NCBI GenBank assembly: GCA_964534295.1
Contig: CAZHOC010000001.1
Span: 1 to 45,442, forward strand
Reading direction: 5' to 3'
Length of the DNA: 45,442 bases
Source: an uncultured Bacteroidia bacterium
Lineage (GTDB): Bacteria; Bacteroidota; Bacteroidia; J057
The position numbers and the translations under genes are program-made. Shown piece after piece: positions 6,201 to 43,916 of this stretch. The notes below the pieces were generated by a model, which was given only the letters and a program-made list of their open reading frames with translations, had not been told where the DNA came from and did no database searches. How positions within the stretch are numbered: position 1 is the stretch's first letter; each line of letters starts with the position of its first letter.

Positions 6201-6606
6201 CCAGTTCGTAGGATGTTTTCCCGACCGTGGGAGAATGATCAACGGCCCTGCTCAGCCTCAAGCCTTCTCTGAGATATGTAATGCCTTGCTCTACTTTCCC
6301 GCTGACGACATAATAAGTCCCCAATATCTGCTTGGCCTGACTCTCTGCTAATTCGTCATCTGCGGCTTGGGCCAATTTTAGTCCTTCCTCCCCAAAAAAC
6401 CGCATGCTGTCTAATTGGGAGTTTAGATAGTGATTGGCCAGGGTATTCATCGCCAGCAGACGGCTTGTATCGGCTAAGCTTTCGTTTGATATTACTTCCC
6501 GCAAAGAGTCCAGATGTATCTGGGCAGGGAGAAGGATGACGGAAAAAAAGTATAGGACAGTGAAAACGAAGCGTCCTTTCATTTGCTTGGGAAGTTGGAT
6601 AGTCAA
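3208..6606 (-). CDS. Hybrid two-component system protein: TPR-repeat sensor, TM helix, HisKA, HATPase, receiver domain and AraC-type HTH
   Basis: 1132 aa. It has a long run of TPR-like repeats and a TM segment (ISYFLLAGLGITLLFGGLLF). The H-box is FFTNISHEFRTPLTVI. The ATPase boxes are NLLSNAIKFTPEGG, DSGRGI and GTGVGLSL. The receiver reads LLIVEDNADIV...ITDVMMPRKNGYE...LTAKA. The C-terminal AraC HTH reads AYFNRVFSEVYEQSPGEWR. Confidence 0.92.
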   Translation of the reverse strand: MTIQLPKQMKGRFVFTVLYFFSVILLPAQIHLDSLREVISNESLADTSRLLAMNTLANHYLNSQLDSMRFFGEEGLKLAQAADDELAESQAKQILGTYYVVSGKVEQGITYLREGLRLSRAVDHSPTVGKTSYELGAALLALGEMDSARFYFQQALIIHQKNGDQRATASALGALGTVSNNLSKFDQAHSYFERAIAVFEQLGDKKAQGMMYRQLAFIYVTRNKYKEGLAYCKESLGLFEEIQDLAEAANTQTAIGLTFFYQSQYDSARWYHLRSLENSQLLENKRGMSYAYGNLGLVDNKTGNSVKAIENYEKSLSLKEALGDKRGIATTLHSISKIYEDLEDYPLELEFAQRSYQLFEELGDKFKMAATLRNISMAHIQMGAYSQARTTAQQSLKISKELALTTEEAQAHLILGTILKEEGQRDSAALAYQKALSLTDEVRGLSTVKSAHLSLARLALEAKEWPEAIKYARSVLEAKPETNSATRIRNAADILWQSMAATGQKAKAFDYHQLYIQMRDSVSSVANQRAAIRYEFKQQAQADSIASAALLTAEVEENKRRRTISYFLLAGLGITLLFGGLLFNRFRLTARQKTIIEEEKQKLDQANSELNAANQKLTELDNFKSQFFTNISHEFRTPLTVITGMTQQLQQQPDKWQKKGLALIDRNAQGLLHLINQILDLRKLESGNLSLSLIQGDITQALQLSVASFESMAENRDVELVYVAEESPLIMDFDPEKLGQIANNLLSNAIKFTPEGGDIQLRTYRMAENQLILEVKDSGRGIPADKLPYIFDRFYQVDGTDTRQGEGTGVGLSLTKELVQLMEGKIEAESILGQGTTITVSLPIRQQAMMQEAIPVPLPVPSPISLPLDLGGATEGDRPRLLIVEDNADIVAYLSTLLQDQYELSTAPDGQVGIEMALEQVPDLIITDVMMPRKNGYEVCETLKLDERTSHIPILMLTAKADAASRLEGYKRGADAYLAKPFNQEELLIRLDNLFQIRQRLQQRYQSGAPLPPLPPSQAEVKQEDAFIQKIREAILANLDDANYRGNALCDELGISRTNLHRKIKALTGKTTTYFIRSIRLEQAKILLMDEELQVAEVAYSIGFNDPAYFNRVFSEVYEQSPGEWRDAQIQK

Positions 6607-14086: not shown

Positions 14087-15577
14087 TTAGGATTGTGTCT
14101 TTCTGGGGTACAACTTTGAAAAGATCCAGCCAGTGATGATGGCAAACAAAAAGGAGGGGGCCAATACATCCAGCTTTTCAAAGTAGGGACCAACACCGTC
14201 CATATTGGCTACTACAAATTTGAAGAAGGGCACACAAAGAAAGCCCGTAATCATAGAAGCGATGGCACCCGCTTCAGAATATCCTTTGTAGAATAAAGAC
14301 AATATGATCACCGGACAGAAAGAGGCGGCAATTCCTGACCAACCAAAGATGACCATCCAAAAGACGGTTCGATTGGGAGAGTTTACGGCTATGAGCATGG
14401 CAATGGCTAAAGCGAGAATCGCCATGATTAGGGTAACCGCTCTCGACATCTTGGTGAGATCCTTATCTGGAATACTGGGATTGAAGATTTTTTGATAAAA
14501 GTCTCGGGTGATGGCACTTGAGGCAATCACCAAGAGGGAATCTATGGTGGACATGATGGCCGAAAGCACCACCGCGACATAAATGGCAACCAACAAATAA
14601 GGCAAGAAATTTTCGGTCATAATGGAAAGGACATCCTCACCTGCATTGCCAAGAATTGCTTCGGGGTCTTGGCCGCTTTCTGTAAATAAGATTCTTGCTA
14701 GCACGCCGATCGTTACGGCAGCAGTATCTGTCAATAAGGTAAAGATGACCGCAACCCATTTTCCTTTATCAATTTCTAATTCGTTTTTGATGGACATAAA
14801 ACGAACATAGACTTGAGGAGAACCCAAGAAGCCTAAACCGATCATGGCAAAGCCAAGCATAGTGGCAATGTTCATCCAGGGATCATCGCTAGGTCCCCAT
14901 ACATTGGTGAGCGCTGGGTCAATCTGATTGAGGCTTTCAACTATGCCGAGGCCTCCGTCCATCGAAAAGTAAACTACCAGAGGTAGGAGGAGTAGGCCAA
15001 AAAACATCAATAGTCCCTGAAACAAATCCGACCAGACCGCGGCGACAAAGCCCCCAATAAAGATGTAGGTCAATACGATGAAAAAGCCAATAATGGCTCC
15101 AACGTAATAATCAATCCCCATCATTGATTCAAAGGCTTTGCCCGTGACATCAATTTGCGAGCTGACATAAATGATCACAAAAAGGGAAAGAATGGTAGAG
15201 GCTAAAATGCGTAGGGTCTTGGTATTGGACTGAAAATGACTTTCTAAATAATCAGGCACGGTGATGGCCTGGTATTCGTCGGTCTTTCGTTTGAAGCGTT
15301 TAGCCATATACCACCATGAAACGGCAACTCCTAGGACTTCTCCCACTACTACCCAATAGGTCGATAGACCAGAAATAGCGCCCATGCCCGTCAAGCCGAT
15401 CAACAACCAGCCCGATTCGCCAGTCGCTCTGGCCGAAAAAGCCACTGCCCAAAAGCCCATATTTTTGCCCCCTACATAAAAATCACTCATGCTTTTGACT
15501 CGCCGAGAGGCAAAAATGCCAATAAGAAACAGGGCTAGGACATATAGCCCTAAAGCAATTAGTTTAGAGATTTCCAT
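14087..15577 (-). CDS. Sodium:solute symporter (SSS family) transporter
   Basis: 496 aa and polytopic. The N-terminal pattern DFYVGGKNMGFWAVAFSARATGESGWLLIGLTGMG is typical of PutP/PanF-type SSS proteins. It lies 47 bp downstream of the decarboxylase on the same strand. Confidence 0.85.
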   Translation of the reverse strand: MEISKLIALGLYVLALFLIGIFASRRVKSMSDFYVGGKNMGFWAVAFSARATGESGWLLIGLTGMGAISGLSTYWVVVGEVLGVAVSWWYMAKRFKRKTDEYQAITVPDYLESHFQSNTKTLRILASTILSLFVIIYVSSQIDVTGKAFESMMGIDYYVGAIIGFFIVLTYIFIGGFVAAVWSDLFQGLLMFFGLLLLPLVVYFSMDGGLGIVESLNQIDPALTNVWGPSDDPWMNIATMLGFAMIGLGFLGSPQVYVRFMSIKNELEIDKGKWVAVIFTLLTDTAAVTIGVLARILFTESGQDPEAILGNAGEDVLSIMTENFLPYLLVAIYVAVVLSAIMSTIDSLLVIASSAITRDFYQKIFNPSIPDKDLTKMSRAVTLIMAILALAIAMLIAVNSPNRTVFWMVIFGWSGIAASFCPVIILSLFYKGYSEAGAIASMITGFLCVPFFKFVVANMDGVGPYFEKLDVLAPSFLFAIITGWIFSKLYPRKTQS

Positions 15578-15624: not shown

Positions 15625-17016
15625 TCAAGCCGTGATAGATGGCTCAAATAAGTGGGCATTTTCTGCCACAAACTGCTCCAATATTTTGAAGAAGTCTAAT
15701 ATATCCTGATGTTCGTTTTGGGCATTGATGGTGACCAAACGGATAAACTCATCTTCTTTAAAAGTACCGTAGCCTACCAAAAGCTTTGCATGCTCATAGA
15801 GTAGGGTGCAAATATCACGGGCCGGAATCCCTTTATAATTAAAGCAGATGGCAATGGAGTCATCAAAGCTATAGAGAGTATAATCTTTATTGTTGCGGAC
15901 ATACTCTCTGGCCGTATCGGCTAAGGCGAATTGGTGATCTACGATTTTTTCCAGACCAGAGGTACCTACGCTCTTCCAAAGCGTCCAAAATTTGAGGGCA
16001 TCATTTCTTCGACCACACTGCAAGGAGGTCTTGCCGAGATTGAATTCGTCGTGATCCGTTTGATACAGATAATTGGCATCATTGGAAAAAGAATCGTAAA
16101 GATGCTTTTTGTCTTTTACGACAATGATCGAACAAGAGAGGGGGGTCCCGATCATCTTATGGGCATTAAAGCTAAAGGAGTCCACCAGCTCTACGCCGTC
16201 AATGAGGTGCTTGTACTTTTCACTAAATAAAACGGAGCCACAATATGCACCATCGATATGTAGCCACATATTATGTTGTTTGCAGATGGCACTGACGGAG
16301 CGGACTGGATCAAATGCGCCGAGTACAGTCGTGCCTGCAGTCAGATTGACCATGATCGGTAATCCTCCAGCAAGTTTATCCGCCTCTACCATTTCGGCTA
16401 ACAGTTTTGTATCTATCCGGCCTTCATCATCTGTCGGCACATAACGGACATTTTCTCTACCGATGCCACTGAAAGCGGCATTTTTAGGAATGCTATAGTG
16501 AGATTCTTTTGAAGTATAGACCAGCATTTTTTGCTGCATCCCCTGTTGCTTTACAGTCTCGGATGCGGCATCTCTCGCCATGAGCATAGACATGAAGTTG
16601 GTCATAGATCCGCCGGGTGCTAAAGTACCATCCGAATTTTGATCCCAACCGATCATATCACAAACTTCTCTCAATATCTTTTTTTCTACTCCTATTTGTG
16701 GCCCTGCTGCCTTATAGGTGTACATACTATTATTAAGGATAACAGAGAGTAGTTCTCCTAGTATGGCTTGCTCATTGCGCCCTCCAAATAACTGATTGAA
16801 AAAACCCGTGGTGGCGGTTCGGGTCGAAGCAAAAACGAGTTCTCTTACAACCTGCTCAAATTCACTTTCACTTAATGGCTCCTTTTTTAAGGATAAATCG
16901 AGGCTCTCGTACAATTGAGAGGAAGGAATATGCTTGGCAACTGGATTTTTCTCTTCATCCTCCAACAACGCAGTCGTAATCCGTTGAAATAATTCAAGTC
17001 CTTTTTTCATGGTCAA
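15625..17016 (-). CDS. Group II PLP-dependent decarboxylase, predicted cysteine sulfinic acid decarboxylase (CSAD)
   Basis: 463 aa. The PLP-lysine motif is FNAHKMIGTPLSCS. FFNQLFGG...NNSMYTYK aligns with animal CSAD FFNQLFSG...NTSQYTYE. That places F, S (+20) and Y (+22) at the three selectivity positions; GAD65 has S, N and F there. Confidence 0.78.
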   Translation of the reverse strand: MTMKKGLELFQRITTALLEDEEKNPVAKHIPSSQLYESLDLSLKKEPLSESEFEQVVRELVFASTRTATTGFFNQLFGGRNEQAILGELLSVILNNSMYTYKAAGPQIGVEKKILREVCDMIGWDQNSDGTLAPGGSMTNFMSMLMARDAASETVKQQGMQQKMLVYTSKESHYSIPKNAAFSGIGRENVRYVPTDDEGRIDTKLLAEMVEADKLAGGLPIMVNLTAGTTVLGAFDPVRSVSAICKQHNMWLHIDGAYCGSVLFSEKYKHLIDGVELVDSFSFNAHKMIGTPLSCSIIVVKDKKHLYDSFSNDANYLYQTDHDEFNLGKTSLQCGRRNDALKFWTLWKSVGTSGLEKIVDHQFALADTAREYVRNNKDYTLYSFDDSIAICFNYKGIPARDICTLLYEHAKLLVGYGTFKEDEFIRLVTINAQNEHQDILDFFKILEQFVAENAHLFEPSITA

Positions 17017-18347: not shown

Positions 18348-19898
18348 ATGATTTTGATCCCTACTCTCTGCCTACGAACTAACCTAAGTGTTTTTCTCTC
18401 GCTTCTCATCTCTGCTTTGCTTTTTTCTGCATGTGCAGAAACCGAGCCCAATCGACCCAACATCATTATCATCTATGCAGACGACATGGGCTATGGGGAC
18501 CTAAACTGTCAAAATCCAAACTCCAAAATCCCCACTCCCAATCTTGACAAACTTGCGTCAGAAGGTATGCGCTTTACCGATGCCCATAGTTCTTCCGGTA
18601 TTTGCTCGCCCAGTCGCTTCGCCCTCCTTACGGGTAGTTATCATTGGCGTAGACAGCATGGCATAGTGGGAGCCTTTGGTAAACCGTTTTTTGAGGATAC
18701 AGATATCACTTTACCCCAACTTTTAAAGGCAGATGCTTATCAAACGGCTTGTATTGGTAAATGGCATTTGGGTTGGAATTGGCCCTTTAAAAATGAGCCC
18801 TCCGGAGAAGTCATGCAATGGGGCAAGGTGAGGAAATATTATTTGCCTGAAGACATCGACTGGAGTCAAGCCATCGGCGGAGGTCCCCTAGACCGCGGTT
18901 TTGATTACTACTTTGGTGATGGCACCATTAATTTTCCTCCTTATGCTTGGGTTGAAAATGACCGTTTGCTTGAAGCACCTACCGAAGTAATGGACATCAA
19001 TAATGTGGGTTTTGATACCAAAGAAGGGCAGTGGGAGTTTCGACCAGGACCGAAGGTCAAAGACTGGAATCCCTATGAAGTGCTACCGACCCTGGCTGAT
19101 AAGACCGTAGAGTGGATAAATAATCGCAATGAAGAGGAACCCTTCTTCTTATACTTTGCCTTACCTTCTCCGCATGCTCCCATCATCCCTAATGATGAGT
19201 TTGATGGAAAATCTCAGGCAGCGGCCTATGGTGATTTTGTCTATCAAACCGATTGGGTAATTGGTCAAGTTCTCAATGTCTTGAAAGAAAAGGGGCTGGA
19301 AGAGAATACCATCATTGTTTTTAGTGCCGACAATGGACCAGAGTCATACGCTTGGGCGCGAGCTGAAAAATTCGATCACTTTAGCATGGGTCAATTTCGG
19401 GGTTTAAAACGCGATGTTTGGGAAGGAGGCCATCGTGTGCCATTGATTGTAAAATGGCCGGGGCAAATCAGGGCCAATTCAGTTTCAGAAGAAGTAATCT
19501 CTCAAGTGGATTTGATGGCTACATTAGCAAAGTTGACGAATATCAACTTGCCCGAAAATGCAGCCCCTGATAGCTATGATTTTACTGAGGTTTTTCTGGG
19601 AAAAGCCTATCACTCACCCATAAGAGAGGCGACCGTTCATAATACCTATGAATCAACTTGGGGCCTCCGAAAAGGCGACTGGCTATACATCAACAGTAAT
19701 ACTGGCGGCCATCGGAAACTACCTACATCCTTTCAAGAATTAAAGGGCTATTCGGATTTTGAAACGCAGGGAATCTTATTTGATATGAAAAAAGATGCCG
19801 AGCAACGCACCAACCTATACCAAGCTTACCCAGAAAAGGTCGCCGAAATGGATAGCCTGATACAGCTTTATCGAGCTTCTGAGAGGACGGTGCGCTGA
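18348..19898 (+). CDS. Arylsulfatase (formylglycine-dependent sulfatase family), probable lipoprotein
   Basis: 516 aa. The signal or lipobox is LLFSACAE. Motifs include [14 protein letters not shown], the FGly motif [11 protein letters not shown] and GKWHLG. Confidence 0.9.
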
Positions 19899-34993: not shown

Positions 34994-37435
34994 TTAATGT
35001 CTTATCACGCTCTGTATGCTGCGTCGCGTTTCTTGGATCAGTTCGAGATGGTAAAGTCCTTTGGGCAATGCACTGAGGTTGAGTCGTTTTTGTGTTTCAC
35101 CCTGCGGGGAACGCTCATCCGTGATCAGCTGCCCTTGCATATCCCACAAACGAATTTGCGTGGCAGGACCTCTCTCCCAACGGATCATAATCTCTCCCTG
35201 AGTGGGGTTCGGGAATATGCTGAGACCTTGCACCTCCAATAGGTCCGTAATCGAAGTGCTGATGTTTGCCTCCAACGGCTCCACACTTACGTCCAAGGTG
35301 TTTTCGTCTTTGTCGATCATATCGAGACGAGCCACGCTCATCGCAAATGGAATCATCGCTTTGGCGATATCATCATCCATCACTACAATGATATTGGCGA
35401 GGCGGCCGTAACCGCTGACGTTAGCTTGATCAAGGCGTACCTGAGCTAAATCAATTCGGCCGAAGTCCGCTAAGTTTTTACTGTAGCTAAGTAGGTCTAC
35501 GCCATTGGTTCCCAACCAGCTAGGGTTCATATCGACGAGCATACTTTCTACCTGGCTGGTATCATAGTCGAGCGAGAAGGCGATGCCGTATACATCTTGG
35601 GCCAAGGTATCCATGGTGCCCAACCAAACGCCCACTTCAATGGTATCTCCCGGGTCGATTACTGTATCTGAAACGGTGAAGTAAAAGGGCGCGCCATCGA
35701 CGGATTCATCATCGCGTTGGCTAAGATGGGTAAAACCATAGTTGAGGTCAATCGCTAGCGTATCGTCCCGATCGATGGTGCCATTGCCGTCGCTATCGAC
35801 ATGTTTGAGGTTCACGCCTGAAGCGAGGCTATCATTCCAATCAGGGGCAGTTTGGCCGACCCAATTGAGAGAAGCGTTCGGCCGAGCCGGACCCGTAGAT
35901 AAATAATGCAAACCAATCGGCAAGATATCCCAAGCATCAGCTATTTGATCATGGTTGGCATCTCCGGGATAGACTTCACCTGCGATCACACAGCTATCTA
36001 CTCCGGCATCATACCAGGCTTGAATATAATCGGCATCCGCGCCAAGATTACAGGCATTTTGGAGGTAGTTGCCCTCTTTATTGATGATGATTGCCATCAC
36101 GATGGTATCGCTCGCATTGGGGCCTAGCATGAAGGGTCCGCTACTCCCTATCGCCCGACGGTCAATCGGTTGGATGCCGGCATTGGCCATGGTCCAGCCT
36201 ACTTGATTGCAGACATCACCAGAGAAGATGAAGTCAGTTGGGGGGCCACTGGCACTATCCGGATTGCCGTTACCGGGGCCGCCATTGCTGTAATTGTCCA
36301 CAGCGTGGACGCCGGGAGGGTTGCTGGTGCTGGGGATAAAGCTCTGGAGGTTGCCATAGTAGTGCTGCGAAGTGGTTGGTGTGATGGTGAAATCATTGCG
36401 GTAGGTCAGGAAGTTGGTCAACCCCATGTCCTCTCCTGGCTCGTCAACTACACCATCGCTATCATTATCGATCCCATCGTTCAGCGGAGCTGTACCCCCT
36501 CTCAACATCTGAATACCGACAGCAGGAGTATTGGCGCCAAATTGATTGTCATTATTAGTGCCATTGTAGCCGTAGTACATGCCTCGGATGGAGTCTACGC
36601 CTACATAATCATCCAAAAAACCGCCCAAATCAAAATCTGTCCATTGACCGGCATAGACATCAGCATAAGTTTCATTGCTGCGATTGACGAGATGGTATTC
36701 TAGGAAAATGGATTCCTCTAGTTCATTGCCGGGGCAATCATAGCCATAAAGCAAAGCGTGAACCTCCAATCCCATGGGACTCGGATTGTAGCGATCATTG
36801 GCTGGGTCTGGACCACGGTCGTTAAAGACCCACCAGATCATGGCGTCGCCTTTGAGTCGAGGATGATCCCCTTGGTCAGGATTGTAGTCATTGGGATTGC
36901 CGTTTACATCTACCCATGGCGCAGCATTGGCAAGGGTATTGCCATTGAAATCTACCAAAAAGGCCGGCCAGTCATAGACATTGGGGTAGGCGCTGGGGTT
37001 ATCCACGACTCCATTGTCTTGAAAATCTTGTAAATAAGCCTCCAATTCCACCCGATCAATTTTCCAAAAGCGATCATGTTGTGCTGTAGTGATGCTATCA
37101 GTTGCGGCGGTGTTTTGAGAGAGTGGACCCGGCCAAAAATCATAACCAGTACCCTGCCAAGAACCCCAATCATGCACGCTAAGATGAAGCTGGCCACTCT
37201 GGGCGATACCCCCAATCCAAAGGCCAGAGCCTGTTACCAGACCGATATTGGCGTCCTGTGTCATGAGTCCACCAAAAAGATTGTTTTCAAACAGAGCGCC
37301 ATCGCTGCGGACGAAGGCTTTGACATTACCGACCTCGAGCGAATCATAAGCAAAAGGCCATATTTGAGCAGTAAGCGTAGTTGCGAGTGTGAGGATAAAG
37401 AAGGTTAGAAAAGGCTTTTTCATGGTCTTAAACAA
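34994..37435 (-). CDS. Large secreted protein with calcium-binding/dockerin-like repeats, a cohesin-like module and a T9SS C-terminal sorting domain
   Basis: 813 aa with a signal peptide. Repeats are DGIDNDSDGVVDEPGED, GDANHDQIADAWD and VDSDGNGTIDRDD. The cohesin-like stretch is TIEVGVWLGTMDTLAQDVYGIAFSLDYDTSQV. The CTD is LSIFPNPTQGEIMIRW...LPKGLYHLELI. Confidence 0.7.
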   Translation of the reverse strand: MFKTMKKPFLTFFILTLATTLTAQIWPFAYDSLEVGNVKAFVRSDGALFENNLFGGLMTQDANIGLVTGSGLWIGGIAQSGQLHLSVHDWGSWQGTGYDFWPGPLSQNTAATDSITTAQHDRFWKIDRVELEAYLQDFQDNGVVDNPSAYPNVYDWPAFLVDFNGNTLANAAPWVDVNGNPNDYNPDQGDHPRLKGDAMIWWVFNDRGPDPANDRYNPSPMGLEVHALLYGYDCPGNELEESIFLEYHLVNRSNETYADVYAGQWTDFDLGGFLDDYVGVDSIRGMYYGYNGTNNDNQFGANTPAVGIQMLRGGTAPLNDGIDNDSDGVVDEPGEDMGLTNFLTYRNDFTITPTTSQHYYGNLQSFIPSTSNPPGVHAVDNYSNGGPGNGNPDSASGPPTDFIFSGDVCNQVGWTMANAGIQPIDRRAIGSSGPFMLGPNASDTIVMAIIINKEGNYLQNACNLGADADYIQAWYDAGVDSCVIAGEVYPGDANHDQIADAWDILPIGLHYLSTGPARPNASLNWVGQTAPDWNDSLASGVNLKHVDSDGNGTIDRDDTLAIDLNYGFTHLSQRDDESVDGAPFYFTVSDTVIDPGDTIEVGVWLGTMDTLAQDVYGIAFSLDYDTSQVESMLVDMNPSWLGTNGVDLLSYSKNLADFGRIDLAQVRLDQANVSGYGRLANIIVVMDDDIAKAMIPFAMSVARLDMIDKDENTLDVSVEPLEANISTSITDLLEVQGLSIFPNPTQGEIMIRWERGPATQIRLWDMQGQLITDERSPQGETQKRLNLSALPKGLYHLELIQETRRSIQSVIRH

Positions 37436-39580: not shown

Positions 39581-41143
39581 ATGCGCTTATCCATTCTATT
39601 ACTTTGCCTTGGCTTGAGCATTTCGCTCCAGGCCCAAAATCCTAATATCCTGCTCATTATTGTCGACGATATAGGCGTGGATCCTATACCCGGCTATACC
39701 TCTAATGCTGGGGCGATCAAAGCCAATATGCCGCATCTTCAGGCCTTGGCTGATAGTGGGCTTACCTATGACAATGCCTGGGCTAATCCAGTTTGCTCGC
39801 CGACTCGGGCGGCGATCTTGAGTGGCAAATACGGCTTCCGTACTGGGGTGCTCAATCCGCAGGACCAATCTCGGATCATGAAATCTGAGACCACTTTGCA
39901 TGCTTATCTTGATAGCGCCTCGGGAGGCAACTATGCGCAGAGCTTAATCGGGAAGTGGCACCTTGGCGGTACCGCCAACAATAATTATGATTACCCCGTC
40001 GAAATGGGAATTGACTATTTCGCTGGCATTATGGGCGGTGGCGTGCCCGATTATTTTTCATGGCCTTTGGTCGAAAATGGCCAACAAGCCACAGATACTA
40101 CTTACGCGACGACAAAACTTACCAATCTTGCTATTGATTGGATTCAAGCCCAAAATCAGCCTTGGTTTTGTTGGTTGGCTTACAATAGCGCCCATACACC
40201 TTATCATCTGCCGCCCGCTGAAATGCATACGCAAACCGGATTGAGTGGGGATTCAATGGATATTGAAAACAATCCGCTGCCTTACTATCTCGCGATGATC
40301 GAAAGTCTCGATTATGAATTAGGGCGCATCATGGACAGCATACCTCAAAGTATGCTCGACAATACCACGATTATTTTTGTAGGAGACAATGGCACCCAAA
40401 GGGGTGTGATTCAAGCGCCTTACAATGGCCAAAAAAGTAAAGGCTCGCTTTATCAAGGTGGGGTACACGTGCCCATGATCGTTTCGGGAGCGGGGATTAG
40501 TCGCCAAGGTGAGCGTGAAGCATCATTGATCAGTGTGACGGATATTTTCCCTACGGTATTAGAGTTGGGTGGGATAGCTACACCTTCGGTGAACGATGGA
40601 TTTAGTTTTTATTCCACCTTTAATACGGCCAATAGTGGCATTCGCCACTGCGCCTATGCGGAGGTGGATGATGGCAGCGACAAATCTGGCTGGACGGTAC
40701 GTGAGGATACCTTTAAGTTGATCCATTTTAGCAATGGTACCGATGAAATGTACGATCTTTTGCAAGATCCTTATGAAAACGTCAATCTCTTGACTGGCCC
40801 AACGCCGATGACTGCTGCTCAAACAGCGGCTTACCAACGCCTGAGCAATTTGTTTCAGGATAGTGTTAGCGCCTGCATTTTCCCCGCTAGTCTGAGCACC
40901 AGCAACGAACAAGCGTTCCGCGCAGCGGCCCTCCAAATCTACCCCAATCCGCTGCAAGACCAGCTACAAATCGAGTCAAGCGCCATGATCCCTCTTGATT
41001 ATAAAGTCTATGACCTAAGAGGTCGGATCATCCAAAGTGGCGAGCTCCAAAGCGGCAAAAACCAATGGAACACCAGCCAATGGCCAGCCGGGATTTATGT
41101 GATTGCGGCCGGAGAGGAGAAGCAAAAAGTGATTAAATATTGA
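39581..41143 (+). CDS. Sulfatase (FGly-dependent) with a T9SS C-terminal sorting domain
   Basis: 520 aa. Motifs are the signal peptide, NILLIIVDDIGVD, the FGly motif CSPTRAAILSG and GKWHLGG. The CTD is LQIYPNPLQDQLQIES...WPAGIYVIAAG. Confidence 0.9.
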   Translation: MRLSILLLCLGLSISLQAQNPNILLIIVDDIGVDPIPGYTSNAGAIKANMPHLQALADSGLTYDNAWANPVCSPTRAAILSGKYGFRTGVLNPQDQSRIMKSETTLHAYLDSASGGNYAQSLIGKWHLGGTANNNYDYPVEMGIDYFAGIMGGGVPDYFSWPLVENGQQATDTTYATTKLTNLAIDWIQAQNQPWFCWLAYNSAHTPYHLPPAEMHTQTGLSGDSMDIENNPLPYYLAMIESLDYELGRIMDSIPQSMLDNTTIIFVGDNGTQRGVIQAPYNGQKSKGSLYQGGVHVPMIVSGAGISRQGEREASLISVTDIFPTVLELGGIATPSVNDGFSFYSTFNTANSGIRHCAYAEVDDGSDKSGWTVREDTFKLIHFSNGTDEMYDLLQDPYENVNLLTGPTPMTAAQTAAYQRLSNLFQDSVSACIFPASLSTSNEQAFRAAALQIYPNPLQDQLQIESSAMIPLDYKVYDLRGRIIQSGELQSGKNQWNTSQWPAGIYVIAAGEEKQKVIKY

Positions 41144-41215: not shown

Positions 41216-42796
41216 CTATTTAGATACCACAATAGACTTGGTAGCGAGGACTCTATTGTCGTTGCTCAGGCGGACGGCATAAATGCCTGCCGCAAGCTCT
41301 GAGACAGCAAACTCCAGGCGATGATTGCCGGGGACTTGTTGTTCTTCATGGGCGAGCTTCTTGATCAGGTTGCCTCGCACATCAAAGAGTTCCAGCTTGA
41401 TGCTTTGAGCTTGATCGAGATAATACTGCATAATCACCTGATCCTCCGCCGGATTAGGAAAGGGCGAAAACAAACGACTGCCAGTCAAGCTCTCTACCTC
41501 TTCGAGACTCGTAGTATTTCCCCCGCCAATGACGATATTTTCATCTCCCTCCTCATAAAAGACAAAGTTGGTTCCTACCAGATACATTTCGTCCGCAGTC
41601 CCTTCCCCCCAACTGACAGTCTGCGGCGGGTTGTTGGGATTAAAAGGATTGCTGCTGGTATTGTCGTAGGTCGCATTGACGTGGAGGATGGCCCCGGCTG
41701 GAATCTTTTTCATCCGATCGAAAGTATAAGATCCCTGCCAGTTGAAATCCCAATCCGCAATGCGGATGATATTGATGGTGTCGCCCGTGAGCGTTTCGGC
41801 GTAGATCTCCCAATCTGTGCCAAGGTAGTGCGCATGTGGATAAATGGAGATCAGGCTGATATCATCGGTAAGAGTTTTGCTGCCGTGGAAGGACTTGACT
41901 TCATCAGGCGGAATCGAAAAAGAAAACCAACCACCATCTAGGTCAAAAGGAGTGATGGGGGCCCGTTCAACCTCTCTCACGATGGTGTCGCTAGGTTCTT
42001 TAAAAAAGATATTGAGCAGTGAGCGATCGGTCTCGTTTGTAGGTAAAGGGGCGTAGTGAATCTGCATCAAAAGATCTGCTCCAGCGGGCAGCGTAATGCC
42101 AATCCCTTCGGGATAAAAGATAGGCTGAATACCAGGTGTATAACCCGTAAAATTGCCTTGCGTAGGCACACCAAAGTCGCCAAAAGCTTCATAACCATAG
42201 CCAGGCGTTTGTGCGTCTAAGGCGGCGGCTTGACCGTTGATCTCATATGCTAAGAGCGCATGGTGGACAGCCCGCTTATTGCCTGGTCTAAACTCAACCG
42301 CTGCGATTTCTTTGTCTTCGGTCAGCCCACTGGGCAGGACAAATACTCGGTAGTCGTCTTGATTATTGCCTTGGATAAAGTAGTCCTCCGACATCTCCAA
42401 GACGAGGTCTGGAGTGCCTAATTGCGAACCACTCGGAAAGCTGGGCAAAGCAGGCTCCAAGGTAGGATCACCTTGAGGCACCCCTGCCGCTACCCAATCG
42501 GAGATCATTTGGATCTCTTGCTCGCTCAAGCCACTCTGGCCGATAAACTGACTGTACTCACGGTCAGGCTTCCAAGGCGGCATATAGCCGATTTGAGTTA
42601 CGTATTCGATCATGCCGGCCCAAGCGGCTACTTCATTGTAGTTGGTCAAGGAGAAGGGGGCGATCTCCCCAGGGCGATGGCAAGAGGTGCAATTGTTGTA
42701 AATGATTGGGGCGATGTCTTCGCTAAAAGTCACTTGAGCAAAGGCTAGGTTCAGCGTCATCAAGCCCAAACAGAAGAGGGATAATAAGTATTTCAT
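41216..42796 (-). CDS. Secreted fusion of a c-type cytochrome domain, a PHM/DBH-like copper type II monooxygenase and a T9SS C-terminal domain
   Basis: 526 aa with a signal peptide. The heme-binding CTSCH sits in FSEDIAPIIYNNCTSCHRPGEIAPFSL...MPPW. All six PHM copper-ligand contexts are present: AVHHALL (HH), MQIHYAP (H), YPHAHYLG (HxH) and GTADEMYL (M). The CTD is LFSPFPNPAEDQVIMQYY...LAAGIYAVRL. Confidence 0.8.
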   Translation of the reverse strand: MKYLLSLFCLGLMTLNLAFAQVTFSEDIAPIIYNNCTSCHRPGEIAPFSLTNYNEVAAWAGMIEYVTQIGYMPPWKPDREYSQFIGQSGLSEQEIQMISDWVAAGVPQGDPTLEPALPSFPSGSQLGTPDLVLEMSEDYFIQGNNQDDYRVFVLPSGLTEDKEIAAVEFRPGNKRAVHHALLAYEINGQAAALDAQTPGYGYEAFGDFGVPTQGNFTGYTPGIQPIFYPEGIGITLPAGADLLMQIHYAPLPTNETDRSLLNIFFKEPSDTIVREVERAPITPFDLDGGWFSFSIPPDEVKSFHGSKTLTDDISLISIYPHAHYLGTDWEIYAETLTGDTINIIRIADWDFNWQGSYTFDRMKKIPAGAILHVNATYDNTSSNPFNPNNPPQTVSWGEGTADEMYLVGTNFVFYEEGDENIVIGGGNTTSLEEVESLTGSRLFSPFPNPAEDQVIMQYYLDQAQSIKLELFDVRGNLIKKLAHEEQQVPGNHRLEFAVSELAAGIYAVRLSNDNRVLATKSIVVSK

Positions 42797-42814
42797 TGTC
42801 AGTAGGCTTGGAGA

Positions 42815-43384
42815 TTAGTTGGGCTTCACTTTGCTGATAAAACAACCCACTGCCGGCGCATTTTGGGTTTGGATGACTTGGCCATTGCTTATGGCTGCTA
42901 GCACATCCTTGAGCTCAGCAGTGTGGGTGATACGCTTGCGTTGGCCGACTCTGGCGTAAGCATCGTCGATGCGCCCTTGGTAGAGGATTTGGCCTTGGGT
43001 CTCGTTGTAAACCACGACTTCAGGAGTAATGGTCGCGCCAAAGGCTTCGGTCTTTGCTTGACCCTCGTCTAGCTGCAAGGCAAAGGGAATCTTATAGGTA
43101 GCCTTAAACTCCTGAATCTTTTCGACCTGAGAAGAGGCATTTGGAAAGAGGCCTACGAAGCTGAGATTTTCACTGGCGTACTCTTCATGCAATTGGCGCA
43201 GTGGGAGCGTATAGTATTGACTGATCAAGCAAGCCTCGTGCAAAAACACATAGACCGTAATCTGATCGGTGGAGGCTAGTGCTGATCCAGCTTTTGACTG
43301 GGTCGAGCCAAAGCACAATAGCCCCAAGAGAAGCAATAAACTCTGTTTCATGACATTTGGGTTTGTTAGGTTGTAAAACCTCAA
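42815..43384 (-). CDS. Thioredoxin-fold (redoxin-like) secreted protein with a CxxS motif
   Basis: 189 aa with a signal peptide. VYVFLHEACLISQYY occupies the position of the redoxin WCxxC motif. It lies 18 bp upstream of the monooxygenase gene on the same strand. Confidence 0.6.
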   Translation of the reverse strand: MRFYNLTNPNVMKQSLLLLLGLLCFGSTQSKAGSALASTDQITVYVFLHEACLISQYYTLPLRQLHEEYASENLSFVGLFPNASSQVEKIQEFKATYKIPFALQLDEGQAKTEAFGATITPEVVVYNETQGQILYQGRIDDAYARVGQRKRITHTAELKDVLAAISNGQVIQTQNAPAVGCFISKVKPN

Positions 43385-43512: not shown

Positions 43513-43642
43513 CCGCTGCGCGGAACGCTTGTCTCTGATCAAATGATTATTCGTTTTACAAAAATGTAGCGACGGAAAATTTTCCGTCGCTACGGATCGT
43601 ATCGATCGATACCATTTTGTTTTTTGGGACAAACGTTCCGCG
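43513..43642. mobile_element. Minimal 130-bp TIR-bounded element E5 with different cargo
   Basis: The left end is ccgctgcgcggaacgcttgtc and the right end is gacaaacgttccgcg. The interior holds a 28-nt perfect palindrome gtagcgacggaaaattttccgtcgctac (43566-43593) and a 14-nt palindrome gtatcgatcgatac (43599-43612). An 18-nt perfect palindrome tcccgaaagctttcggga follows at 43643-43660. Confidence 0.7.
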
Positions 43643-43731
43643 TCCCGAAAGCTTTCGGGAGTAACCCCCCCAAAAAAAACTGAGCGACTAAAAAAAACCG
43701 CCATAAACGCGAAAAAATGAGGTTTTTGCCT

Positions 43732-43767
43732 AAAAAAATGAAGCGACACAAAATCTTGTATCGCTTC
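43732..43767 (-). terminator. Probable intrinsic terminator downstream of scpA
   Basis: The hairpin gaagcgacacaa/ttgtatcgcttc (43740-43767) has a 12-bp stem with one mismatch. A-runs flank both sides, so a U-tract follows it on the minus strand. Confidence 0.6.
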
Positions 43768-43916
43768 AAAAAAAATTAGGGGACTCAATCCCTATCGGGA
43801 GAGTCACCCTAACCCCTAGCTTCTGTATCTGGCGTAATGCCTATGACTCTAAGGTCGGGCAAATTATTTTATTTACCAAATCATCCAATTAAAAAAATAT
43901 GTATGTGGTGGAAAGG

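What the first reader, a model, noticed from the sequence alone, without database searches (positions are those of the whole stretch)
41216..43384. Cytochrome c fused to a PHM/DBH-like copper monooxygenase and a T9SS sorting domain, with a CxxS thioredoxin-fold partner
Seen in the sequence: one 526-aa secreted protein combines three parts.
- An N-terminal CxxCH heme-c domain (NNCTSCHRPGEIAPFSL...MPPW).
- A region with all copper-ligand contexts of peptidylglycine alpha-hydroxylating monooxygenase and dopamine beta-hydroxylase: VHHALL, IHYAP, HAHYLG and ADEMY. Compare the PHM motifs HHM, HYG, HTHHLG and DEMC.
- A T9SS C-terminal sorting domain.

A secreted thioredoxin-fold protein with a single-Cys CLIS motif lies 18 bp upstream on the same strand.

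Established knowledge: PHM and DBH use ascorbate as the electron donor to the CuH site.

Inference: here a covalently attached heme c may act as a built-in electron donor in place of ascorbate. The T9SS domain would send the enzyme to the cell surface or outside the cell, and the redoxin partner could handle reduction or copper loading. The substrate is unknown, and I do not know of a characterised bacterial member with this architecture.
Basis: partly seen in the sequence, partly recalled or inferred. Interest (0 to 1): 0.7.

Follow-up and report, generated by a model that had tools for sequence, protein, structure and literature searches.

The report
Heme-tethered bacterial PHM-like copper monooxygenase
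A Bacteroidota gene pair encodes a secreted copper enzyme of the type that makes noradrenaline and amidated peptide hormones in animals, here carrying its own heme domain and coupled to a thiol-redox partner protein; it belongs to a very large, uncharacterised bacterial family of an enzyme class usually listed as eukaryote-only.

Summary
On the minus strand, a 526-aa protein (41216-42796) has a Sec signal peptide, a monoheme cytochrome c domain (C36-x-x-C39-H40, axial M72), a two-domain PHM/DBH-type copper monooxygenase core and a T9SS type-A sorting domain. A periplasmic thioredoxin-fold protein lies 18 bp upstream.

- **Fold:** the top 31 PDB matches of the AlphaFold model are all PHM or DBH (E 7e-12).
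- **Ligands:** profile alignment puts H178/H179/H247 on the PHM CuH ligands and H321/H323/M404 on the CuM ligands. They are 96-100% conserved across 158 diverse representatives.
- **Substrate:** PHM's peptide-carboxylate anchors and disulfides are absent, so it is not a peptidylglycine enzyme.
- **Partner:** the redoxin is adjacent and same-strand in 61 of 80 species loci. It is fused to the enzyme at either end in 27 of 158 representatives, never together with a T9SS tail. It is not single-Cys: C41 and an invariant C-terminal C170 form the likely redox pair.
- **Family size:** at least 18,000 clusters at 50% identity. I found no paper describing it.

The most likely mechanism is heme c passing electrons to CuH and then CuM for O2-dependent hydroxylation of an unknown substrate. 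The redoxin serves the enzyme in the periplasm as a thiol reductant or maturation factor. Both steps are inferred, not shown.

The parts
42737..42796 (-). Sec signal peptide of the Cu enzyme (residues 1-20, ...LAFA|QV)
   Evidence: Read from the sequence. Homolog N-termini are equivalent.
42461..42736 (-). Monoheme class-I-like cytochrome c domain (residues 21-112). C36-T-S-C39-H40 is at 42677-42691 and the axial-Met motif M72-P-P-W is at 42572-42583.
   Evidence: CxxCH and M72 are invariant. Domain-only Pfam scan: Cytochrome_CBB3 16/16 (best 9.5e-7), Haem_bd 16/16, Cytochrom_C 14/16, PccH 13/16. 18 of 19 weak PDB profile hits are c-type cytochromes, and MPPW aligns with the cytochrome c6 axial-Met motif MPAW.
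41987..42424 (-). CuH (electron-transfer) domain of the PHM/DBH-type core (about residues 125-270). Ligands are H178, H179 (VHHALL, 42251-42268) and H247 (Q245-I-H247-Y-A-P, 42047-42061).
   Evidence: Foldseek top 31 hits are PHM/DBH. hhalign maps them to PHM H107/H108/Q170/H172. Relatives pass the Pfam Cu2_monooxygen gathering score (P0306 32.9, P0327 34.1, P0358 31.3 vs 30).
41522..41986 (-). CuM (O2-activating) domain (about residues 271-425). Ligands are H321, H323 (HAHYLG, 41819-41836) and M404 (ADEMY, 41582-41596). The family-specific motif D-W-D-F-N-W-Q354 lies at 41735-41755.
   Evidence: hhalign maps them to PHM H242/H244/Q272/M314. Cu2_monoox_C hits 27 of 29 homologs, several above the gathering score. 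Conservation.
41219..41461 (-). T9SS type-A C-terminal sorting domain (residues 446-526), preceded by a low-confidence linker (426-445)
   Evidence: Pfam Por_Secre_tail 1e-10, 42.2 bits vs cutoff 27. TIGR04183 34.4 bits vs 23. 29 of 29 homologs. Profile hits to solved T9SS CTDs 8glk and 8qb1.
42797..42814 (-). 18-bp intergenic spacer between the redoxin stop codon and the Cu-enzyme start codon (operon junction)
42815..43351 (-). Periplasmic thioredoxin-fold redoxin (178 aa from the ATG). Signal peptide is residues 1-21 (43289-43351). C41-L-I-S is at 43220-43231, the cis-Pro motif T-P110-E-V at 43016-43027, Y-x-G-R-I-D-D at 42962-42982, and the invariant G169-C170 at 42836-42850.
   Evidence: phmmer against PDB: 3u5r 4e-9, 2ywi 4e-8, 2cvb 1.5e-6. 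AF2 pLDDT 88.7. Foldseek best hits are 2ywo/2cvb/2ywi/3u5r, then ResA/StoA/DsbE/DsbF/PilB-N. Conservation. N-termini are Sec signal peptides with no conserved lipobox.
43566..43768 (-). Two terminator-like hairpins after the upstream scpA gene, marking the 5' boundary of the two-gene unit
   Evidence: 12- and 13-bp stems followed by T-runs. This is a consensus scan only.

Best explanation
**Shown.** The 526-aa protein is a heme-c-tethered, noncoupled binuclear copper monooxygenase of the PHM/DBH superfamily. It is made with a Sec signal peptide and carries a T9SS type-A sorting domain. It forms a conserved two-gene module, fused into one polypeptide in other phyla, with a periplasmic thioredoxin-fold redoxin of the 2cvb/2ywi/3u5r subfamily. 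That redoxin has a conserved N-terminal Cys (C41) and an invariant C-terminal Cys (C170).

**Inferred mechanism.**
1. The protein is exported by Sec.
2. Heme is attached to C36/C39 in the periplasm, with His40 and Met72 as axial ligands, and copper is loaded.
3. The T9SS moves the folded holoenzyme to the cell surface or the medium.
4. The heme takes single electrons from an external donor and passes them to CuH (H178/H179/H247).
5. Electrons go from CuH across the interdomain cleft to CuM (H321/H323/M404), helped by the conserved Q245 and Q354.
6. O2 is activated at CuM to hydroxylate a C-H bond.

The substrate is unknown. It is not a C-terminal glycine, because the PHM carboxylate anchors R240, N316 and Y318 are replaced.

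**Role of the redoxin.** It is a dithiol/disulfide (C41-C170) partner that acts on the enzyme in the periplasm. In the fused, non-T9SS relatives it most likely is the two-electron entry point of a thiol to heme to Cu relay. This follows the logic of Neisseria PilB, whose TlpA-like domain is recharged through DsbD/CcdA. In T9SS lineages such as this one it can only act before export. There it would keep the CxxCH cysteines, the only cysteines in the mature enzyme, reduced for heme attachment, and/or deliver the enzyme in a reduced state.

**Approximate probabilities.**
- Identity and architecture: 0.9.
- Heme to CuH relay: 0.65.
- Redoxin is an obligate functional partner: 0.9.
- Redoxin as catalytic electron donor in at least the fused forms: 0.35.
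For: **Fold.** The AF2 model has mean pLDDT 80. Foldseek top 31 hits are all PHM or DBH (E 7e-12 to 1e-8, TM normalised to target 0.60-0.65, about 300 columns); the next hit is at 4e-6.

**Residue mapping.** hhalign of the 75-sequence profile against rat PHM gives probability 93.5%, E 2e-7 over 290 columns. All six ligands plus Q170 and Q272 are aligned. The PHM sequence was validated and the numbering.

**Conservation.**
- Invariant in 29 homologs and in about 80 species loci.
- In 158 representatives: CxxCH 151/151, M72 156/156, H247 157/158, M404 151/152.

**Pfam.** Cu2_monoox_C hits 27 of 29 and Cytochrome_CBB3 24 of 29. Relatives score above the gathering thresholds for both Cu domains.

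**Heme domain.**

**T9SS tail.**

**Coupling to the redoxin.**
- Adjacent and same-strand in 61 of 80 loci: 50 upstream, 8 downstream as one clade, 3 between tandem copies.
- It is the only conserved neighbour.
- Fusions occur as Rdx-Core (23), Core-Rdx (3) and a tandem form.
- The fused domains keep the C-P-I-S-type motif and the G-C motif.

**Redoxin fold.** Its closest solved relative exists in oxidised and reduced crystal forms (2cvb, 2ywo), and the next tier is ResA/CcmG/TlpA/PilB-N-like.

**Cysteines.** The mature enzyme has only Cys36 and Cys39.

**Precedent.** A bacterial extracellular c-type cytochrome domain reduces a copper monooxygenase in PMC8981238.
Against: - No coordinates were available, so the heme-CuH distance and the domain packing are unknown. 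The pLDDT around the heme site (residues 39-48) is below 50, as expected for a model built without heme.
- On the window protein alone, the Pfam scores for the cytochrome and Cu domains are below the curated cutoffs.
- Sequence-only PDB searches did not find PHM.
- Topology: the redoxin lacks a T9SS tail. No fused protein carries one either (0 of 27 vs 73 of 131, p = 7e-9, confounded with phylogeny). The redoxin therefore cannot sustain turnover of the exported enzyme.
- No extracellular electron source is identified.
- 16 loci with enough flanking sequence lack the redoxin, and two fusions have degenerate redoxin domains. The partner is therefore dispensable in some lineages.
- Direct thiol-to-heme electron transfer by a thioredoxin-fold protein is unusual chemistry.
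- There is no clue to the substrate and no conserved third gene.
Confidence: 0.6

Rival explanations
1. The enzyme is as described, but the redoxin is purely a biogenesis factor. It would be a dedicated ResA/CcmG-like apocytochrome reductase that keeps the CxxCH cysteines reduced in the oxidising periplasm until heme is attached, and would play no part in catalysis in any lineage. Catalytic electrons would reach the heme from other donors, such as periplasmic cytochromes in non-T9SS phyla and small-molecule reductants outside the cell in Bacteroidota.
For: - C36 and C39 are the only cysteines in the mature enzyme, so they are the only possible thiol-disulfide exchange target.
- The second tier of fold matches is ResA, StoA, DsbE/CcmG and DsbF.
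- This is the only role compatible both with fusion in periplasmic forms and with separate compartments in T9SS forms.
- The redoxin has been lost repeatedly, which fits a general cytochrome-maturation reductase substituting for it.
Against: - General cytochrome c maturation systems already include such a reductase, so a dedicated one retained in several phyla and in thousands of clusters is unexpected.
- A permanent fusion, including at the C-terminus and in tandem units, is more typical of an electron-donor domain than of a factor used once.
- About half of the orthologs have CxxS/T rather than the CxxC of ResA/CcmG.
Confidence: 0.3
2. The redoxin is a Sco-like copper(I) chaperone or Cu(II) reductase that loads the two copper sites in the periplasm before export, using C41 and C170 as a bis-thiolate Cu(I) site.
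For: - It has a thioredoxin fold, as Sco proteins do.
- Its two invariant cysteines are unlike a standard CxxC.
- The copper sites must be filled before or after T9SS export.
Against: - There is no conserved His or Met to complete a Sco-type site; the invariant residues are listed.
- The best structural relatives are thiol-disulfide oxidoreductases with oxidised and reduced forms, not Sco proteins.
- No copper-handling genes lie nearby.
Confidence: 0.12
3. The module is not a substrate hydroxylase. It is an oxidase that moves electrons from thiols to O2, that is redoxin to heme to Cu to O2. That would make it a periplasmic disulfide-generating or thiol-oxidising system. A variant of this idea is that the redoxin scavenges H2O2 leaking from the copper site.
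For: - The redoxin-cytochrome-Cu fusion is a complete thiol-to-O2 wire on paper.
- PHM-type enzymes produce H2O2 when uncoupled (established knowledge).
- Databases label some members 'peroxiredoxin'.
Against: - The full PHM catalytic apparatus is conserved, including the CuM Met and Q170/Q272 equivalents. That argues for substrate C-H activation.
- The redoxin lacks the peroxiredoxin PxxxTxxC context. The position three residues before the Cys is L/H/A/S.
- T9SS export separates the two proteins.
Confidence: 0.08

Closest known systems
Peptidylglycine alpha-hydroxylating monooxygenase (PHM; PDB 1PHM, 1OPM, 1SDW, 3MLL)
   Same: Two-domain beta-sandwich fold. All six copper ligands (3 His at CuH; 2 His + Met at CuM) and the second-sphere Q170 and Q272 equivalents align and are conserved.
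   Different: - About 15% identity.
- None of PHM's five disulfides is present; the mature protein has only the two heme cysteines.
- The peptide-carboxylate anchors R240, N316 and Y318 are replaced by a variable hydrophobic residue, Leu and Gly.
- It has an N-terminal heme c domain and a T9SS tail.
- It is bacterial.
- Its electron donor is presumably the heme rather than free ascorbate.
Dopamine beta-hydroxylase / tyramine beta-monooxygenase / MOXD1 (PDB 4ZEL)
   Same: Same catalytic core (4zel at ranks 12 and 18, E 7e-11). It is also a multidomain enzyme with an extra N-terminal domain ahead of the copper core.
   Different: DBH's N-terminal domain is a DOMON domain, whereas this protein has a c-type cytochrome. 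There is no dimerisation domain. The substrate pocket was not compared.
CjX183 cytochrome c domain of Cellvibrio japonicus Cbp2D acting on bacterial LPMOs (PMC8981238); by analogy, the cytochrome domain of fungal cellobiose dehydrogenase acting on LPMOs (own knowledge)
   Same: A small extracellular c-type cytochrome domain supplies electrons to a secreted copper monooxygenase in place of ascorbate, with less H2O2 leakage.
   Different: In that system the donor and the enzyme are separate proteins and the enzyme is a mononuclear histidine-brace LPMO. Here the cytochrome is covalently fused to a binuclear PHM-type core.
Cytochrome-c-fused copper enzymes of bacteria, such as cytochrome-tethered NirK nitrite reductases and caa3 oxidase subunit II (own knowledge, not tested here)
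   Same: A tethered monoheme cytochrome c acts as a built-in donor to a copper electron-transfer site.
   Different: The copper folds and chemistry differ (cupredoxin type 1 or CuA centres). Neither is a monooxygenase.
Thioredoxin-like proteins 2cvb/2ywo (T. thermophilus), 2ywi (G. kaustophilus) and 3u5r (S. meliloti SMc02350); more distantly ResA, CcmG/DsbE, TlpA and the PilB N-terminal domain
   Same: Sequence homology (E 4e-9 to 1.5e-6), including the C-terminal x-G-C-x-I motif. Same fold, TM about 0.7. It is extracytoplasmic, like ResA, CcmG and PilB-N. In PilB a TlpA-like domain is fused to the redox enzyme it recharges (own knowledge).
   Different: The closest relatives are structural-genomics proteins with no known function. 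The window protein has C-L-I-S rather than CxxC. Its partner is a heme-copper enzyme, which is not described for any of these.

Membership tests
Copper type II ascorbate-dependent monooxygenase superfamily (PHM/DBH; Pfam PF01082 + PF03712) | Two-domain beta-sandwich catalytic core | tested here: met
   Foldseek top 31 PDB hits are all PHM or DBH, E down to 7e-12, TM normalised to target 0.60-0.65 over about 300 columns.
Copper type II ascorbate-dependent monooxygenase superfamily (PHM/DBH; Pfam PF01082 + PF03712) | CuH site: three His (PHM H107, H108, H172) | tested here: met
   H178, H179 and H247 align to them. Conserved at 151-157 of 158.
Copper type II ascorbate-dependent monooxygenase superfamily (PHM/DBH; Pfam PF01082 + PF03712) | CuM site: two His + Met (PHM H242, H244, M314) | tested here: met
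   H321, H323 and M404 align to them. Conserved at 151-152 of about 154.
Copper type II ascorbate-dependent monooxygenase superfamily (PHM/DBH; Pfam PF01082 + PF03712) | Score above the Pfam gathering thresholds | tested here: inconclusive
   The window protein scores 15.9 bits on Cu2_monoox_C against a cutoff of 23, and its N-terminal Cu domain is not reported. Relatives do pass: Cu2_monoox_C 24.4-34.5 bits; Cu2_monooxygen 31.3-34.1 bits against 30.
Copper type II ascorbate-dependent monooxygenase superfamily (PHM/DBH; Pfam PF01082 + PF03712) | Binds two Cu and catalyses O2-dependent hydroxylation with an external two-electron donor (ascorbate) | not testable with these tools
   Needs purified protein.
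PHM proper (peptidylglycine-specific) | Peptide C-terminal carboxylate anchors R240, N316, Y318 | tested here: not met
   They align to Y319 (variable in the family: A/F/L/M/T/S), L406 and G408.
PHM proper (peptidylglycine-specific) | Five conserved disulfides | tested here: not met
   The mature protein has only Cys36 and Cys39.
DBH / TBM / MOXD1 | N-terminal DOMON domain | tested here: not met
   No DOMON hit. The N-terminal domain is a c-type cytochrome.
Class I c-type cytochrome | CxxCH heme-attachment motif | tested here: met
   C36, C39 and H40 are invariant; 151 of 151 in representatives.
Class I c-type cytochrome | Distal axial Met ligand in the expected position | tested here: met
   M72 is invariant (156 of 156). 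MPPW aligns with the cytochrome c6 motif MPAW.
Class I c-type cytochrome | Profile match above the curated cutoff | tested here: inconclusive
   The domain alone scores 24.4 bits on Cytochrome_CBB3 against a cutoff of 27. All 16 family members hit this model (best E 9.5e-7), along with three other cytochrome c models.
Class I c-type cytochrome | Covalently bound heme and redox activity | not testable with these tools
   Needs a pyridine hemochrome assay, mass spectrometry or potentiometry.
T9SS type-A cargo | C-terminal sorting domain (PF18962 / TIGR04183) above the cutoffs | tested here: met
   42.2 bits against 27 and 34.4 bits against 23. Present in 29 of 29 close homologs.
T9SS type-A cargo | T9SS-dependent secretion and CTD cleavage | not testable with these tools
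   Needs a secretome comparison of wild type against a T9SS mutant.
TlpA/ResA-like extracytoplasmic thioredoxin-fold oxidoreductases (2cvb/2ywi/3u5r subfamily) | Thioredoxin fold with a cis-Pro loop, and sequence homology to the subfamily including the C-terminal G-C motif | tested here: met
   E 4e-9; TM about 0.7; P110, G169 and C170 invariant.
TlpA/ResA-like extracytoplasmic thioredoxin-fold oxidoreductases (2cvb/2ywi/3u5r subfamily) | Canonical CxxC active site | tested here: not met
   The window protein has C-L-I-S. In the family the fourth position is S 47%, C 41%, T 10%. A C41-C170 pair is proposed instead, but this was not verified structurally.
Peroxiredoxin (AhpC/TSA) | Peroxidatic Cys in a PxxxTxxC context | tested here: not met
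   The context is F-L-H-E-A-C, and the position three residues before the Cys is L/H/A/S in the family. The Pfam AhpC-TSA score of 23.1 is below the cutoff of 26.

The most novel reading that the evidence does not exclude
This is the founding example of a very large family (18,025 clusters at 50% identity with E up to 1e-3) of ascorbate-independent, PHM/DBH-type copper monooxygenases in bacteria. In this reading a protein dithiol (redoxin C41/C170) supplies the two electrons per turnover, a tethered heme c gates them one at a time, and they pass to CuH and then CuM. That would be a self-contained thiol to heme to copper relay with no described counterpart. In Bacteroidota the catalytic unit would have been split from its redoxin and sent out through the T9SS as an extracellular C-H hydroxylase acting on an environmental substrate such as a peptide, amine or polymer.
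Probability: 0.3. Interest if true: 0.85.

Novelty: new variant of a known kind. Interest (0 to 1): 0.72.

Why it matters
PHM and DBH are textbook animal enzymes that produce amidated peptide hormones and noradrenaline. A 2020 metalloproteome review still tabulates them as eukaryote-only cuproproteins (PMC7435645).

How electrons reach CuH and cross the roughly 11-Å gap to CuM is still debated. A bacterial version with a covalently attached heme would offer:
- a defined, spectroscopically visible, stoichiometric electron entry point;
- an enzyme without disulfides, which should make bacterial expression and engineering simpler;
- a natural test of which donor replaces ascorbate.

The family is also very large in environmental Bacteroidota, Latescibacterota and other phyla. 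Its unknown substrate may therefore represent an unrecognised extracellular or periplasmic oxidative reaction.

The redoxin coupling, seen both as synteny and as independent fusions in both orders, suggests a link between periplasmic thiol redox chemistry and copper oxygenases. I found no description of such a link.

Tried and rejected
- **Sequence-only PDB searches.** Searches with the single protein and with the full-length profile did not retrieve PHM or DBH. Only fold comparison and hhalign did.
- **Sulfatase link.** The convergent T9SS sulfatase (39581-41143) suggested a connection to sulfatase maturation, but it is not a conserved neighbour (2 weak hits in 80 loci). A single distant relative (P0357) has a fused FGE-sulfatase domain. 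I treated this as anecdotal.
- **Third conserved gene.** I looked for CcdA/DsbD, cytochrome-maturation and copper-chaperone genes and found none. The only other recurrent 'family' is an antisense shadow ORF inside the Cu gene, plus gap-pgk in one subclade. Non-Bacteroidota flanks are unrelated, and the window contains nothing relevant.
- **Regulatory disulfide.** I tested whether cysteines at the PHM C81 and C315 positions (residues 151 and 405), which are present in many relatives, co-vary as a possible regulatory disulfide. They do not co-vary cleanly.
- **Lipoprotein hypothesis for the redoxin.** No lipobox Cys is conserved.
- **Promoter scan.** The sigma-70 scan is uninformative for Bacteroidota.
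- **Heme-Cu distance.** Model coordinates are not exposed, so I could not measure it.
- **Literature.** Nine full-text searches found no paper on a bacterial cytochrome c-PHM/DBH-like enzyme. The library is incomplete, so this is absence of evidence only.


Full report
**1.

The window contains two same-strand (minus) ORFs, 41216-42796 (526 aa) and 42815-43384. They are separated by exactly 18 bp. For the upstream gene, the ATG at 43351 gives a 178-aa protein with a clean signal peptide, and database homologs use this start. scpA lies upstream and is followed by two strong terminator-like hairpins. A T9SS sulfatase converges from downstream. The pair therefore looks like its own transcription unit.

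**2. What the large protein is**

On the window protein alone, Pfam detects only the T9SS sorting domain above threshold (42 bits against 27). The cytochrome c hit (E 0.003) and the Cu2_monoox_C hit (E 0.009) are sub-threshold, and NCBIfam agrees on the T9SS tail. Sequence-only searches of PDB did not find PHM. Evidence from the family and from the fold is decisive:

- An AlphaFold2 model built on 29 homologs has mean pLDDT 80, with the beta-sandwich core at 85-95.
- The top 31 Foldseek hits in PDB are all PHM or DBH (E 7e-12 to 1e-8, TM normalised to target 0.60-0.65, about 300 aligned columns, which is the whole two-domain PHM core). The next hit is about six orders of magnitude weaker.
- A 75-sequence family profile aligns to rat PHM over 290 columns (hhalign probability 93.5%, E 2e-7). 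The PHM sequence was validated against PDB.
- The alignment maps H178/H179 to H107/H108, Q245 to Q170, H247 to H172, H321/H323 to H242/H244, Q354 to Q272 and M404 to M314. The numbering was verified.
- These residues are invariant in 29 homologs at 48-70% identity and in about 80 species loci. They are 96-100% conserved in 158 sequences that mostly represent clusters at 50% identity or less.
- 27 of 29 homologs hit Cu2_monoox_C. Several relatives pass the Pfam gathering thresholds for both the N-terminal and C-terminal copper domains.

The protein does not carry the PHM substrate anchors. R240 aligns to a variable small or hydrophobic residue, N316 to Leu and Y318 to Gly. None of PHM's five disulfides is present, and the mature protein has only two cysteines. 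It is therefore a member of the PHM/DBH copper monooxygenase superfamily, but not a peptidylglycine enzyme.

**3. The heme domain**

Residues 21-112 carry an invariant C-x-x-C-H and an invariant M72 in M-P-P-W. When the domain is scanned alone, all 16 diverse members hit Cytochrome_CBB3 (best E 9.5e-7) and Haem_bd. Cytochrom_C is hit by 14 of 16 and PccH by 13 of 16. Eighteen of the 19 weak PDB profile hits are c-type cytochromes, and MPPW aligns with the axial-Met motif MPAW of cytochrome c6. This points to a monoheme, His/Met-ligated class-I-like cytochrome c.

In the aligned representatives the copper core is always preceded by this domain (151 of 151). That is the strongest, though indirect, argument that the heme is part of the enzyme's electron path.

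**4. The partner**

- The upstream protein is homologous to three structural-genomics thioredoxin-fold proteins: 3u5r (E 4e-9), 2ywi (4e-8) and 2cvb (1.5e-6). All share a C-terminal x-G-C-x-I motif.
- Its model (pLDDT 88.7) matches them best. They include the oxidised (2cvb) and reduced (2ywo) forms of the T. thermophilus protein. The next tier is ResA, StoA, DsbE/CcmG, DsbF and the PilB N-terminal domain.
- Across 58 orthologs, C41 is 98% conserved. The fourth motif position is S 47%, C 41% and T 10%. P110 (cis-Pro), Y124, G126 and G169-C170 are invariant.
- The 'single-Cys CxxS' description is therefore wrong. The likely redox pair is C41-C170.
- It lacks the peroxiredoxin active-site context.
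- Its N-terminus is an ordinary Sec signal peptide with no conserved lipobox and no T9SS tail. It should be a soluble periplasmic protein.

**5. Coupling between the two genes**

A scan of one genome per species found at least 557 genomes with a relative. In the best 80 loci, the redoxin is adjacent and on the same strand in 61:

- 50 are immediately upstream.
- 8 are immediately downstream, forming one clade.
- 3 lie between tandem enzyme copies.

The pairing also holds in Latescibacterota and Kapaibacterium loci. The 16 loci that have enough flanking sequence but no redoxin are scattered on the tree, which indicates an ancestral pairing with repeated loss. No other neighbour is conserved.

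A search of 1.84 billion cluster representatives, using a profile of the cytochrome plus copper core, found 18,025 clusters at E up to 1e-3 and 3,913 at E up to 1e-30. Among 158 sequences retrieved:

- 23 are redoxin-cytochrome-Cu fusions.
- 3 are cytochrome-Cu-redoxin fusions.
- 1 is a tandem form.

Fusion in both orders means the fusions arose independently. The fused domains keep the C-P-I-S-type motif and the G-C motif. This Rosetta-stone evidence makes a functional partnership very likely.

**6. A topological constraint**

Fusion and the T9SS tail never co-occur: 0 of 27 fused proteins carry one, against 73 of 131 unfused proteins (Fisher p = 7e-9). This is confounded with phylogeny. In Bacteroidota the enzyme leaves the periplasm and the redoxin does not.

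The redoxin therefore cannot sustain turnover of the exported enzyme. In this organism it must act before export. The only cysteines available for thiol-disulfide exchange in the enzyme are the CxxCH pair. This keeps a ResA/CcmG-like maturation role as a serious rival (my estimate 0.3) to the catalytic electron-donor role. The donor role is more natural for the permanently fused periplasmic forms and has a precedent in Neisseria PilB (own knowledge; PilB N-terminal domains are among the fold hits).

**7. Mechanism I commit to**

The heme accepts single electrons and passes them to CuH. Electrons then cross to CuM, where O2 is activated for C-H hydroxylation of an unknown substrate that is not a peptidylglycine. 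The redoxin is a periplasmic dithiol/disulfide partner. It is probably the two-electron entry point in the fused relatives, and a pre-export reductant or maturation factor in T9SS lineages such as this one. The architecture, ligands, conservation and coupling are shown. Every electron-transfer step, metal occupancy and secretion itself are inferred.

**8. Comparison and novelty**

The closest known enzymes are PHM and DBH, which share the core but differ in accessory domains, substrate anchors, disulfides and kingdom. The closest functional analogy is the extracellular c-type cytochrome domain CjX183, which reduces bacterial LPMOs in place of ascorbate (PMC8981238).

Databases label family members only as 'T9SS type A sorting domain-containing protein', 'cytochrome c' or 'peroxiredoxin/mono/diheme cytochrome c family protein'. 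Nine full-text searches found no description of the family. A 2025 PHM review does not mention bacterial homologs in the passages I searched. A 2020 review tabulates PHM and DBM as eukaryote-only.

I rate this a new variant of a known kind: a known catalytic core with a new built-in electron-supply module, a thiol-redox partner and a new export route, in a very large uncharacterised family.

**9. Limits**

- No model coordinates were available, so the heme-CuH geometry is untested.
- The substrate is unknown.
- The extracellular electron source is unknown.
- The literature library is incomplete.

Noticed in passing
window 39581-41143 (+): A T9SS-tailed sulfatase (Sulfatase 1.5e-44, Por_Secre_tail 2.5e-11, with a CSPTR formylglycine motif) converges on the Cu gene, leaving a 72-bp gap. 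It is not a conserved neighbour of the pair. However, one distant relative (P0357, 964 aa) fuses an FGE-sulfatase domain (2e-58) to redoxin-cytochrome-Cu.
   Followed up: partly
window 15625-17016 (-) and 14087-15577 (-): A PLP-dependent decarboxylase (Pyridoxal_deC 2e-78, the family that includes aromatic amino acid, tyrosine and glutamate decarboxylases) sits next to a sodium:solute symporter. It is about 25 kb from the DBH-like enzyme. An amine-forming decarboxylase in the same window as a DBH-type hydroxylase is suggestive, but I did not test it for co-occurrence.
   Followed up: no
window 34994-37435 (-): An 813-aa protein with a T9SS sorting domain (4e-12) and no other Pfam domain: another uncharacterised T9SS cargo.
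   Followed up: no
window 18348-19898 (+) and 3208-6606 (-): A second sulfatase (2e-59), and a 1132-aa hybrid regulator (TPR repeats, histidine kinase, receiver, AraC HTH) of the kind that controls polysaccharide-utilisation genes in Bacteroidota.
   Followed up: no
L063 4019-7476, L076 4022-7329, L080 5773-9445: These Flavobacteriales loci carry two paralogous copies of the enzyme flanking one redoxin gene (Cu-redoxin-Cu). In L063 and L076 the first copy (484 aa) lacks the PNP motif of the sorting domain. The two copies form sister clades.
   Followed up: partly
P0345 and P0363 (fused relatives): Their N-terminal redoxin domains are degenerate. P0345 lacks the C-terminal G-C motif, and P0363 has no cysteine at either position. 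The thiol chemistry has apparently been lost while the domain is retained.
   Followed up: partly
P0253, P0372, P0298, P0373 (relatives): Other C-terminal add-ons to the cytochrome-Cu core include a Kunitz/BPTI protease-inhibitor domain, a PD40/DPPIV-N beta-propeller, and PKD/Ig/InlB-B-repeat spacers ahead of the T9SS tail. No carbohydrate-binding modules were seen.
   Followed up: partly
window 41321-41941 (+): A 206-aa ORF antisense to the Cu gene recurs in 31 of 80 loci. It is a shadow ORF produced by the conserved coding sequence on the other strand, not a gene.
   Followed up: yes
L042 4812-5363 (+): In this locus a second thioredoxin-like gene (Thioredox_DsbH 4e-17) lies immediately upstream of the redoxin-enzyme pair. 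In L079 a LysR-type regulator precedes the pair.
   Followed up: no
window 43566-43768 (-): Two long, perfect terminator-like hairpins (12- and 13-bp stems followed by T-runs) lie in tandem within the roughly 560-bp scpA-redoxin intergenic region.
   Followed up: partly
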